A DNA stretch of 64,000 nt from Escherichia coli O127:H6 str. E2348/69 (GTDB lineage: Bacteria > Pseudomonadota > Gammaproteobacteria > Enterobacterales > Enterobacteriaceae): assembly GCF_000026545.1 (NCBI RefSeq), contig NC_011601.1; one strand, 5' to 3'. Position numbers: made by a program. The first letter of the stretch is position 1. Every line of letters begins with the position of its first letter. Of the stretch, positions 29,201 through 32,200 are shown piece after piece.

Positions 29201-32200
29201 AAAGCACGGCTCGGGATCTGACGACACAGATCCTCGCCTGGCCACAAGAAGGCAAATCTGCCCGTGCTGTCAGTGGCCTGAACATCCTTACCCTGATGAA
29301 TAATGATATGGCGCTGATACAGCTGCACCATATATCCCAACGGGCGAAATCCCGCTCCTTACGTGATAACGCGGCGGAATTTCTTCAGGTGGTCGCAGAA
29401 AATCGCGGGCTAAGCCAGGAAGAGTTAGCGGACAGATTAGTCCCAACACTGGGTCTTGATGATCCGCAGGCGTTGATTTTTGATTTTGGTCCACGGCAAT
29501 TTACCGTTCGCTTCGATGAAAACCTCAACCCGGTTATCTTTGATCAGCAAAACGTTCGCCAGAAAAGCGTTCCCCGGTTGCGCGCCGATGACGATCAACT
29601 GAAAGCCCCCGAGGCACTGGCCCGACTAAAAGGGCTAAAAAAAGATGCGACTCAGGTGAGCAAAAACCTGCTCCCGCGTCTTGAAACTGCCCTGCGCACC
29701 ACCCGACGCTGGTCGCTGGCAGATTTTCATTCTCTGTTTGTTAATCATCCCTTTACCCGCCTGGTTACCCAGCGATTAATATGGGGGGTTTATCCGGCAA
29801 ATGAACCGCGTCGTTTACTCAACGCCTTTCGTGTGGCCGCAGAGGGGGAATTCTGCAATGCACAAGATGAGCCCATTGACCTGCCTGCGGATGCTCTGAT
29901 TGGCATTGCCCACCCGTTAGAAATGGCAGCAGAAATGCGCAGTGAATTTGCACAGCTTTTTGCCGATTACGAAATTATGCCGCCTTTTCGCCAGTTGGCG
30001 CGGCGCACGGTGCTGCTCACACCTGACGAGTCAGCCAGTAACAGCCTGACTCGCTGGGAAGGTAAATCCGCTACCGTTGGGCAACTTATGGGAATGCGAT
30101 ACAAAGGCTGGGAGTCAGGCTATGAGGACGCATTTGTCTATGACTTAGGTGCGTACCGGCTGGTCCTTAAGTTTTCACCCGGCTTTAACCACTACAGTGT
30201 TGATAGCAAAGCGCTAATGAGCTTCCGTTCTCTTCGGGTTTACCGTGACAATAAATCTGTCACTTTTGCCGAACTTGATGTGTTTGATTTGAGTGAAGCG
30301 TTAAGCGCACCCGACGTTATTTTCCATTAAAACACAGCGGGCAGTGATGCAACTGCCCGTTATCGACACGACTTACCTCCGGGAAAAGCGATGATCGTGC
30401 AAAAAGAGCTGGTTGCTATTTACGATTATGAGATCCCTGTACCTGAAGATCCGTTTTCCTTCAGACTTGAGATCCATAAATGCTCTGAATTATTTACAGG
30501 TTCCGTCTATCGACTGGAGCGATTCCGGCTACATCCAACATTTCATCAACGTGATCGAGAAGATGCCGACCACTAATAAATGGTGCGTTGATTTATATAA
30601 GAGATGAGTTTATTGATGAGCAGAAATTACGAGGTGAATCACATGAAACAGTAATAGCAATTTTTAATTATGAACTACAGAATATATTCAACCAAGAAAT
30701 AAAATAATATACTCTAGATAATTCAAGTCGCAGGAAGGCGATAAGCGAGTGAATCCCCAGGAGCTTACTAAAGTAAGTGACAGGGGTGAACGAACGCAGT
30801 CGCAGCACATGCAACTTGAAGTATGACAAGTAAAGCTTTATTAAAGGGGGAAACGGTATTCCCCCTTAAATGCGTTTCAATTTGCCCGTTACTTCAACAA
30901 ATCAATCAACCGTAACAGAGCCACTAATAACTCCAGTACGGCAATGAGCACGGTTAACTTTTGTGTCAGCGTGTCCATTCGCTCTCCTTATTAAGGAGCG
31001 CAACACCAGCATCTTACCCTTACACTGCCTGTCGATACTGGTTTACGTATGTTGAGTCGCCATGTTGCACTCCGGATCAGAGCACTACCTGCGGCACCAC
31101 CCGTCCGGTAGCCAGGACTTGAAATTGGTTCGATCCGGCGCAACTTCCCAACAGTCAGGATTATAAATCTCATTATCTTAATTGCAACGGGGTCCGTAGG
31201 TGGTTATAATTCGTTCGTTGGGGCGCCATGTTGCATAATCAGTAACTTAACGTCAAAGTTGTAAATAAAAGAACCTGCCTCACCAGCAGGTTTTTTTATT
31301 TTTTGCGATCTGCTTTCCAGATATTTTCCGCTCAAACAACTAATGCGCCAAACATTTATTGCGCGTAAAATATCGTTTATTTCATTAATACATTTCAGGG
31401 ATGAATATATGTCACCGCAGAATAATCACCTGCAGCGTCCGCCTGCTGCTGTGTTATACGCCGTTGAACTGGCAAAATTAAAACAAAATGATAACGCTCC
31501 TTGCCCGCCTGGTTGGCAGTTAAGTTTGCCTGCGGCCCGTGCTTTTATCCTTGGCGACGAAGCGCAAAATATTCGCCGTAAAGTGGTGATTAGTCCCTCT
31601 GCTGTCGAACGCATGTTAGTCACTCTTGCCACCGGGCGCGGTTTGATGTTGGTGGGGGAACCGGGTACCGCAAAATCTCTCCTGTCTGAATTACTGGCAA
31701 CCGCTATTAGCGGCGATGCCGGGTTAACCATCCAGGGCGGCGCATCTACCACTGAAGATCAAATCAAGTACGGCTGGAACTACGCTCTGCTTATCAATCA
31801 TGGTCCGTCAACGGAAGCGCTGGTTCCTGCCCCGCTTTACCAGGGAATGCGCGACGGCAAAATCGTCCGTTTTGAAGAGATAACGCGCACACCGCTGGAA
31901 GTGCAAGACTGTCTGTTAGGTATGCTTTCTGACAGGGTGATGACGGTGCCGGAACTCACTGGTGAAGCCAGTCAACTCTATGCACGGGAAGGCTTTAATA
32001 TTATTGCCACTGCCAATACGCGCGATCGCGGCGTCAATGAAATGAGTGCCGCGCTAAAGCGTCGCTTCGATTTTGAAACTGTCTTTCCGATTATGGATTT
32101 CGCCCAGGAGCTGGAGCTTGTCGCCAGTGCTTCGGCGCGTTTGCTGGCCCATAGCGGCATTCCGCATAAAGTGCCTGACGCGGTACTGGAGTTACTGGTC

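What the first reader, a model, noticed from the sequence alone, without database searches (positions are those of the whole stretch)
30725..30835. ERIC element adjacent to the toxin-antitoxin-like locus
The imperfect-palindromic ERIC/IRU repeat sits between the yehK-like ORF and the 3' end of the toxin-like gene. ERIC copies are variably present between strains, so this intergenic gap (ERIC plus TA) looks like a small hotspot of accessory sequence inside core genome.
Basis: partly seen in the sequence, partly recalled or inferred. Interest (0 to 1): 0.2.

Follow-up and report, generated by a model that had tools for sequence, protein, structure and literature searches.

The report
Ordinary ERIC repeat beside zorO-orzO

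Summary
The window is E. coli E2348/69 (100% match). A 123-bp ERIC element lies at 30710-30832, or 30708-30834 with its flanking TA/AA. It starts one dinucleotide after the yehK stop codon and ends 54 nt short of the zorO stop codon, just outside zorO's terminator hairpin. It meets every ERIC criterion I could test: 90-92% full-length identity to ERIC copies at other loci, about 10 copies per E. coli genome, both ERIC-PCR primer sites, a long hairpin, and TA termini with a TA target duplication.

The neighbouring module is the published type I toxin-antitoxin zorO-orzO.

The site is strongly polymorphic across 5,426 complete E. coli genomes:
- full or long ERIC: 904
- short ERIC (72-bp deletion between 8-bp repeats): about 950-1,040
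- a 19-nt ERIC left-end stub fused to a zor 5'UTR stub (K-12 type, toxin deleted): 1,840
- clean empty site: at least 1,170

ERIC elements, their presence/absence variation and zor-orz copy-number variation are all already published. The modest addition is that the deletion behind the "orz-only" locus starts inside this ERIC. Interest is low.

The parts
26704..30330 (+). yehI (DUF4132 protein), upstream core gene
   Evidence: ORF list; RefSeq annotation of E2348/69
30391..30707 (+). yehK, a frameshifted pseudogene in this strain; the stop codon TAA is at 30705-30707
   Evidence: Annotated 'frameshifted'. Frame 1 stops after 61 aa and frame 3 carries the C-terminal part.
30708..30709 (.). Left TA of the target-site duplication
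   Evidence: Filled versus empty alleles...GAATAA TA[ERIC]TA GCTTT against ...GAAAAA TA GCTTT
30710..30832 (+). ERIC element body, 123 bp: TACTCTAG...GACAAGTA
   Evidence: Alignment with ERIC copies at other loci; blastn against 5,426 genomes; hairpin folds
30833..30834 (.). Position of the right TA of the duplication, mutated to AA in this allele; it is TA in the O157, THO-003 and MOD1-EC7003 alleles
   Evidence: Alignment
30726..30733 (+). First copy of the 8-bp direct repeat AGTCGCAG inside ERIC
   Evidence: The 72-bp spacing equals the deletion seen in the short alleles.
30798..30805 (+). Second copy of the 8-bp direct repeat AGTCGCAG
30749..30792 (.). ERIC central core: the two outward-facing ERIC-PCR primer sites
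   Evidence: 2 mismatches each, none in shuffles. The two primers occur together in 246 papers.
30844..30867 (-). GC-rich hairpin downstream of zorO (GGGGGAA..TTCCCCC), the likely zorO terminator and possibly bidirectional
   Evidence: Fold. The simple terminator scan did not call it because the T-run is interrupted.
30889..30978 (-). zorO toxin CDS, 29 aa: MDTLTQKLTVLIAVLELLVALLRLIDLLK
   Evidence: Translation, identical to the published ZorO peptide (PMC6669753)
30979..31187 (-). zorO 5' UTR (about 174 nt as published) and promoter (-10 TATAAT ending at 31160, -35 TTGCAA starting at 31187)
   Evidence: Promoter scan; UTR length from PMC5397157 (abstract shown)
31182..31297 (+). orzO promoter (31182-31210) and OrzO antitoxin sRNA (31224-31297)
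   Evidence: Rfam RF02083 OrzO-P, 91.5 bits, gathering score 60, E 6.5e-15; promoter scan
31409..32497 (+). yehL (AAA-type ATP-binding protein), downstream core gene
   Evidence: Annotation; ORF list

Best explanation
The feature is a standard-length ERIC element (also called IRU or RU-1), a non-autonomous miniature inverted-repeat element. It inserted long ago at a TA dinucleotide immediately after the yehK coding sequence and duplicated that TA. The site lies in the short 3' region where convergent yehK and zorO meet. The element carries no gene and is not part of the zorO-orzO machinery. Its only direct molecular property is that either strand, if transcribed, folds into a long imperfect hairpin. 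Here it would lie in the 3' untranslated tail of the yehI-yehK transcript and outside the zorO terminator, so it is most likely a near-neutral passenger. What it demonstrably does over evolutionary time is make the site structurally unstable. The same insertion now exists in at least four length states besides the empty site. (1) Standard, 123 bp. (2) Long, with a 79-nt internal segment in place of one base. (3) Short, with 72 bp lost between two 8-bp direct repeats. (4) A 19-nt left-end stub, left by a deletion that ran from the ERIC left arm into the zor 5' UTR and removed the toxin gene(s), producing the 'orz-only' locus of K-12 and about a third of E. coli. Shown here: family identity, boundaries, TA duplication, allelic states and their frequencies, and the deletion breakpoints. 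Inferred: transposase-mediated origin, transcription through the element, near-neutrality, and any causal role of the palindrome in the deletions.
For: Family identity. Hairpin. The short allele also folds tightly (-24.2 kcal/mol), and the long allele keeps the ERIC stem and adds four small hairpins (-79.6 kcal/mol). TA duplication and a clean empty site: with empty-site junctions found directly in 685 + 485 genomes. Short form: the AGTCGCAG repeats lie exactly 72 bp apart and the deletion is 72 bp; 947 genomes carry it. K-12 stub: TATACTCTAAATAATTCAA follows the yehK stop and matches the left terminus of ERIC copies at unrelated loci. It is fused to zorP-type 5' UTR sequence. This junction occurs in 1,840 genomes, 1,808 of them at >=99% identity, which points to one old event. 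zor-orz does not depend on ERIC: at least 1,170 genomes have zor next to an empty site. The experimentally studied EDL933-type (O157:H7) locus has only the short ERIC; that state was read here in another O157:H7 strain. An ERIC with the same 79-bp internal insert sits at the same site in Escherichia sp. MOD1-EC7003, which suggests the insertion is old. General ERIC properties (127 bp, terminal inverted repeats, TA termini, target duplication, stem-loop transcripts, orientation-dependent effects on mRNA stability in Yersinia) are summarised in PMC2229807 and PMC10969869.
Against: No expression data were available, so transcription through the element and the absence of a regulatory effect are both untested. 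ERIC mobilisation by a transposase has never been demonstrated (PMC2229807). Insertion versus precise loss cannot be polarised. The one outgroup-like genome carries the ERIC, so the 'empty' alleles could be precise excisions or recombinant imports rather than the ancestral state. The empty alleles also differ from the filled ones by one base in the codon before the TA (AAA or TAT against TAA). Microhomology at the K-12 deletion junction is only 2 nt, so a mechanistic role for ERIC in that deletion is weakly supported.
Confidence: 0.88

Rival explanations
1. The ERIC copy is a working RNA element. As a hairpin in the 3' tail of the yehI-yehK mRNA, starting 2 nt after the stop codon, it would alter mRNA stability in the way proposed for Yersinia ERICs, where a ribosome near the element unmasks an RNase E site. 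Alternatively it acts as a barrier between the convergent yehK and zorO transcripts.
For: The hairpin is strong on both strands. The element abuts the yehK stop codon and lies 9 nt from the zorO terminator hairpin. Orientation-dependent destabilisation of upstream transcripts by ERIC was reported in Yersinia (summarised in PMC2229807, and PMC10969869). The zorO hairpin lacks a clean T-run, so some read-through into ERIC is plausible.
Against: yehK is a frameshifted pseudogene in this strain and in other alleles with the full element. Ribosomes therefore stop about 130 nt upstream and the ribosome-dependent mechanism cannot apply. The element is truncated, reduced to a stub or absent in about 80% of genomes, with no sign that one state is preserved. 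No expression data are available.
Confidence: 0.1
2. The ERIC palindrome actively promotes rearrangement. On this view it caused the 72-bp internal deletion, the loss or gain of the 79-bp internal segment, and the large deletion that removed the zor toxin in the K-12-type lineage. This complements the best explanation rather than excluding it.
For: Three or four independent structural changes have an end inside 123 bp. The 72-bp deletion lies exactly between 8-bp direct repeats brought together by the hairpin. One strain (RM14723) has 7 clustered changes in the left arm that improve pairing with the right arm, as a palindrome template switch would produce.
Against: The large deletion shows only 2 nt of microhomology and happened once, so a chance breakpoint cannot be excluded. 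No rates were measured.
Confidence: 0.3
3. The ERIC is an integral regulatory part of the zorO-orzO toxin-antitoxin module.
For: Adjacency only: the element ends 54 nt from the zorO stop codon.
Against: It lies outside the zorO hairpin. At least 1,170 genomes have zor beside a clean empty site. The second tandem zor-orz copy never carries it. The zor-orz papers read here contain no occurrence of the word 'ERIC'.
Confidence: 0.02
4. The palindrome is a chance or locus-specific hairpin and not a member of the ERIC family.
For: None. An exact search with a 44-nt core consensus recalled from memory, allowing up to 3 mismatches, found nothing, because this copy has 4 differences from it.
Against: E 2e-41 full-length matches to dozens of intergenic sites per genome. 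Homology ends sharply at the element termini. Both primer sites are present.
Confidence: 0.01

Closest known systems
ERIC / IRU / RU-1 elements of Enterobacteriaceae (Sharples & Lloyd 1990; Hulton et al. 1991; Wilson & Sharp 2006; reviewed in PMC2229807)
   Same: Length (123 bp, or 127 with both flanking dinucleotides), sequence (90-92% identity to other E. coli copies), central core with both ERIC-PCR primer sites, imperfect palindrome, TA termini with TA duplication, intergenic position just after a stop codon, and strain-to-strain presence/absence.
   Different: Nothing in kind. This allele has a few private substitutions, for example the right TA mutated to AA and 4 differences in the core.
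Length variants of ERIC: short copies with internal deletions and long copies with an internal insert of about 70 bp. These were described by Sharp 1997 and Wilson & Sharp 2006; I cite them from memory because the papers are not in the held library.
   Same: At this one site both variants occur as alleles. The long form has a 79-nt segment in place of one base after ERIC position 83; it is found in 220 genomes such as UTI89 and DSM 30083, and also at the yeiS-preT ERIC. The short form lacks 72 bp.
   Different: Here the variants are orthologous alleles of one insertion, so the changes happened in place. The window's standard-length allele is identical outside the insert to the long B2 allele.
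zorO-orzO / zorP-orzP type I toxin-antitoxin locus (Fozo et al. 2010, cited from memory; PMC3919570; PMC5397157; PMC11264685)
   Same: The neighbouring module is this system: identical ZorO peptide, OrzO-P Rfam match above the gathering score, divergent promoters, a single zorO-orzO-type copy. Copy-number classes (0.5, 1 or 2 copies) match the published survey.
   Different: The ERIC itself is not part of the system. The published work does not mention ERIC or yehK. It also does not say that the left breakpoint of the orz-only deletion lies in an ERIC.
ERIC elements of Yersinia enterocolitica with an effect on mRNA stability (De Gregorio et al. 2005, known here only through the reviews PMC2229807 and PMC10969869)
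   Same: The element sits immediately downstream of a stop codon, where it would be co-transcribed as a hairpin.
   Different: The upstream gene is a pseudogene here, and no expression effect has been tested.
Other bacterial miniature inverted-repeat elements with TA targets (Correia/NEMIS of Neisseria, RUP of pneumococcus)
   Same: Small size, terminal inverted repeats, TA target duplication, hairpin transcripts.
   Different: Unrelated sequence families in different hosts.

Membership tests
ERIC / IRU / RU-1 | Sequence similarity over the full ~127-bp unit to established ERIC copies | tested here: met
   90-92% identity over 122 of 123 nt to copies at yafP-rtcB, pgk-fbaA and ybhJ-ybhI. Homology ends at the element termini.
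ERIC / IRU / RU-1 | Conserved central core recognised by the ERIC1R and ERIC2 primers | tested here: met
   Both primers match adjacently and facing outward at 30749-30792 with 2 mismatches each; 0 matches in 100 shuffles. The primer pair is found together in 246 papers.
ERIC / IRU / RU-1 | Dispersed, multi-copy and mostly intergenic | tested here: met
   52,723 places in 5,425 of 5,426 genomes, median 10 per genome; 58 of the 60 listed places have no annotated feature under the match.
ERIC / IRU / RU-1 | Imperfect palindrome whose transcript forms a long stem-loop | tested here: met
   -41.6 kcal/mol (z -5.8) and -38.8 kcal/mol (z -4.2); 0 of 200 shuffles fold as well.
ERIC / IRU / RU-1 | 5'-TA-3' at the termini and a target-site duplication | tested here: met
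   The O157, THO-003 and MOD1-EC7003 alleles read TA[TACTC...GAGTA]TA. Empty alleles have a single TA. In this window the right TA is mutated to AA.
ERIC / IRU / RU-1 | Located within a transcribed region | not testable with these tools
   The position, 2 nt after the yehK stop and before the nearest terminator-like hairpin, makes it likely, but no RNA data were available.
[quoted passage not shown] | 29-aa hydrophobic Zor toxin ORF | tested here: met
   The translation of 30889-30978 (-) is identical to the published ZorO peptide.
[quoted passage not shown] | Divergently encoded Orz antitoxin sRNA | tested here: met
   Rfam RF02083, 91.5 bits against a gathering score of 60, at 31224-31297 (+). 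Divergent sigma-70-like promoters are present.
[quoted passage not shown] | Toxicity of ZorO and its repression by OrzO | not testable with these tools
   Shown experimentally for the EDL933 locus (PMC3919570) and inferred here from sequence identity.

The most novel reading that the evidence does not exclude
The ERIC is more than a bystander. Its left arm is the left breakpoint of the single ancient deletion that removed the zor toxin gene(s) and left the orphan OrzP antitoxin (OrzPmg) in K-12 and 34% of sequenced E. coli. On the stronger reading, the palindrome itself triggered that deletion, as well as the in-place 72-bp and 79-bp length changes. [quoted passage not shown] The probability given below is for the causal role, which is not shown.
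Probability: 0.3. Interest if true: 0.35.

Novelty: already known. Interest (0 to 1): 0.15.

Why it matters
It matters little in itself. ERIC elements, their variable presence and length between strains, and zor-orz copy-number variation are all textbook or published. There are two practical points.

1. The zor-orz literature read here describes the locus without noting the ERIC next to it. Knowing its states explains the differences in yehK-yehL spacer length and gives precise breakpoints for the 'orz-only' allele. That allele results from one old natural deletion shared by 1,840 genomes, not from a laboratory-strain loss.

2. The site is a compact natural example of how one repeat insertion decays. 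The standard, long, short and stub forms and the empty site all segregate in one species, which could serve as a lineage marker.

Tried and rejected
- A 44-nt ERIC core consensus recalled from memory gave no match at up to 3 mismatches, because this copy differs at 4 positions. I replaced it with the primer searches and with blastn against real copies.
- My first coverage-based count could not separate full from short ERIC, because overlapping pieces lifted the short alleles to exactly 80% coverage. I redid it with tighter flanks and with 50-62-bp junction-spanning queries.
- The Rfam hit to Vibrio V_AS5 over the whole element (28 bits, gathering score 96) is below threshold. I use it only as a hint that the Vibrio family derives from a related repeat.
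- De Gregorio et al. 2005 and Wilson & Sharp 2006 are not in the held library. As a result, the Yersinia orientation rule could not be applied to this copy. I also could not check whether this exact site is in the published list of non-K-12 ERIC loci.
- The single genome-contig scan, using a degenerate pattern for the yehK N-terminus, returned only one genome, Escherichia sp. MOD1-EC7003. The ancestral state therefore remains unresolved.
- My first zorO CDS coordinates were 5 nt off and were corrected.
- Literature searches for yehK together with ERIC found nothing relevant.
- Mechanical ORFs overlapping the ERIC on the - strand (53 and 40 aa) were not pursued, because nothing supports them as coding.

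Full report
**Origin of the window and layout of the locus**

The 1,251 bases around the finding match E. coli E2348/69 (NZ_CP059840.2) at 100%. RefSeq annotates the following genes there (converted to window coordinates):
- yehI, ending at 30330
- yehK, 30391-30707, marked 'frameshifted'
- yehL, from 31409

The 701-nt yehK-yehL spacer holds three things.
- A 29-codon ORF on the minus strand at 30889-30978. Its product, MDTLTQKLTVLIAVLELLVALLRLIDLLK, is letter for letter the published ZorO toxin (PMC6669753).
- A divergent small RNA at 31224-31297 that matches Rfam OrzO-P at 91.5 bits, against a gathering score of 60. Two divergent sigma-70-like promoters sit between the ORF and the small RNA.

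The 'toxin-antitoxin-like locus' is therefore the characterised type I system zorO-orzO (PMC3919570).

**Is it an ERIC?**

Yes.
- A blastn search with the 123-bp element found 52,723 places in 5,425 of 5,426 complete E. coli genomes. The median is 10 per genome and almost all places are unannotated, that is, intergenic.
- In genomes that lack the element at yehK, the best matches are full-length at 90-92% identity. They lie at yafP-rtcB, pgk-fbaA and ybhJ-ybhI.
- In an alignment with those copies, homology begins at TATACTC and ends at GAGTATA, and the flanks are unrelated.
- The two standard ERIC-PCR primers occur together in 246 papers. They match adjacently and facing outward at 30749-30770 (-) and 30771-30792 (+), with two mismatches each and no matches in shuffled sequence.
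- Either strand folds into one long imperfect hairpin: -41.6 kcal/mol (z -5.8) and -38.8 kcal/mol (z -4.2).
- It is the only copy in the window.

The left boundary should be 30710, or 30708 with the flanking TA, rather than 30725.

**Insertion site**

Alleles with and without the element can be compared directly.
- Filled alleles (O157, THO-003, MOD1-EC7003) read ...GAATAA-TA-[TACTC...GAGTA]-TA-GCTTT...
- Empty alleles read ...GAAAAA-TA-GCTTT... or ...GAATAT-TA-GTTT...

This is the TA target-site duplication listed for ERIC in PMC2229807. In the window's allele the right TA has mutated to AA. The target TA is part of the yehK stop codon TAG in empty alleles. ERIC-bearing alleles stop one codon earlier at TAA, so YehK is 105 aa rather than 106 aa. 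The element ends 9 nt before a GC-rich hairpin at 30844-30867, which is the likely zorO terminator. It therefore lies outside the zorO transcription unit, in what would be the 3' tail of a yehI-yehK transcript.

Nine representative loci show at least four ERIC states besides the empty site, combined with zero, one or two zor-orz copies. The yehK-yehL spacer lengths are 306, 572-575, 629, 701, 779 and 1,182-1,240 nt.

Counts over 5,426 genomes:

| State at the yehK-zor site | Genomes |
|---|---|
| Full-length or long ERIC | 904 |
| Any ERIC covering at least 80% of a wider query | 1,946 |
| Short ERIC, counted directly | 947 |
| K-12-type junction (ERIC stub, toxin gene deleted) | 1,840 (1,808 at >=99% identity) |
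| Empty-site junctions, two allele types | 685 + 485 |
| zor toxin gene present | 3,393 (5,235 places) |

These classes agree with the published zor-orz survey, which found about 30% orz-only, 25% one copy and 42% two copies (PMC11264685).

**How the length states arose**

- *Short form.* It lacks exactly the 72 bp between two AGTCGCAG repeats at 30726 and 30798. This is a simple repeat-mediated deletion, and the remainder still forms a tight hairpin.
- *Long form.* A 79-nt structured segment replaces one base after ERIC position 83. The segment adds four small hairpins and leaves the ERIC stem intact. It occurs in 648 genomes. In 220 of them it is >=99% identical and lies at this site, in B2 strains such as UTI89, NC101 and DSM 30083. 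About 370 carry a 92-93% identical copy; the one I examined lies in the ERIC between yeiS and preT.
- *Age of the insertion.* The same insert, at the same ERIC position and at the same yehK site, is present in Escherichia sp. MOD1-EC7003. This suggests that both the insertion and its long form are old.
- *The window's own allele.* It is identical to the B2 long allele outside the insert, and by subtraction of counts it is rare: 223 against 220 at >=99% identity.
- *K-12 allele.* It keeps TATACTCTAAATAATTCAA, the ERIC left terminus, directly after the yehK stop. This is fused to zorP-type 5' UTR sequence. The breakpoints are ATAATTCAA|GTCGCAG in the ERIC and GGACTTGAA|ATTGGT in the UTR, sharing 2 nt.

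The deletion that created the published 'orz-only' locus, with its expressed orphan OrzPmg RNA (PMC11264685), therefore began inside this ERIC. The zor-orz papers I read contain no occurrence of 'ERIC' or 'yehK'.

**Mechanism**

The best-supported reading is an old, non-autonomous repeat insertion that is now decaying in place and has no demonstrated role.
- zor-orz exists without it in at least 1,170 genomes.
- The second tandem zor-orz copy never carries it.
- The gene upstream of the full-length element is a pseudogene in every full-ERIC allele examined.

An RNA-level effect of the Yersinia type (reviews) cannot be excluded without expression data. It is disfavoured here because ribosomes stop about 130 nt upstream of the element. 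A role for the palindrome in promoting the deletions is plausible but unproven.

**Comparison with known systems, and verdict**

Every ERIC-defining feature that could be tested was met. Only transcription could not be tested. The neighbouring module meets the sequence-level definition of zorO-orzO. The phenomenon is already known in kind. ERIC presence/absence and length variants were described by Sharp and co-workers (cited from memory and through PMC10969869), and zor-orz copy-number variation is in PMC11264685. The only modest addition is the ERIC-anchored breakpoint of the orz-only deletion, together with the full set of allelic states and their frequencies at this site. Interest is low.

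Noticed in passing
L002 (K-12 MG1655) 2010-2056; equivalent window positions 30708-30728 fused to about 31124 onward: K-12 keeps a 19-nt ERIC left-end stub fused directly to a zorP-type 5' UTR stub. This exact junction is in 1,840 of 5,426 genomes, 1,808 of them at >=99% identity. It marks one old deletion that removed the toxin and produced the published orphan antitoxin locus (OrzPmg).
   Followed up: yes
L004 (A22) 1095-1173; L015 (Escherichia sp. MOD1-EC7003, reverse strand); L016 (MLI109, yeiS-preT) about 1201-1301: A 79-nt structured segment sits inside ERIC at the same internal position at two different loci and in a non-coli Escherichia. It is nearly single-copy per genome (648 genomes, median 1 place). 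The window's allele is identical to the long B2 allele apart from lacking this segment.
   Followed up: partly
L005 (RM14723) 1012-1027: This strain's short ERIC has 7 clustered substitutions in the left arm (TACTTACCATGCTTCA instead of TACTCTAGATAATTCA), while the flanks are 100% identical to E2348/69. The new arm pairs much better with the right arm (-24.2 kcal/mol), which looks like a palindrome template switch or a conversion. It appears to be a singleton among 5,426 genomes.
   Followed up: partly
L003 (O157:H7) 3559-3676; L008 3504-3620: In two-copy strains, the spacer between the tandem zorO-orzO and zorP-orzP copies contains a degenerate copy of about 70 nt of the yehK 3' region and no ERIC. 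The ancient duplication unit therefore included part of yehK.
   Followed up: partly
window 30391-30707: yehK is annotated as frameshifted in E2348/69, A22, RM14723 and THO-003, which are all the alleles examined that resemble the window. It is intact in the K-12, O157 and empty-site alleles. Frame 1 ends after 61 aa at 30576.
   Followed up: partly
window 30707-30830: Rfam family V_AS5 (Vibrio antisense RNA AS5) aligns end to end with the ERIC at 28 bits, far below its gathering score of 96. This suggests that the Vibrio RNA family was built on an ERIC-like repeat.
   Followed up: no
NZ_CM176324.1 (strain CAVP879), hit H31: An IS1A insertion lies within the same yehK-yehL spacer in at least one genome, a further source of length variation at this site.
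   Followed up: no
window 30844-30867: The hairpin downstream of zorO is symmetric enough to fold on both strands (-16 kcal/mol on the + strand). It may terminate both convergent transcripts, but the T-run is interrupted on both sides and the simple terminator scan did not call it.
   Followed up: partly
NZ_CP026085.1, hit H176: A record labelled 'DH5alpha' (4.83 Mb) carries two zor copies, unlike K-12 derivatives, which have the orz-only junction. The strain label or the assembly may be wrong.
   Followed up: no
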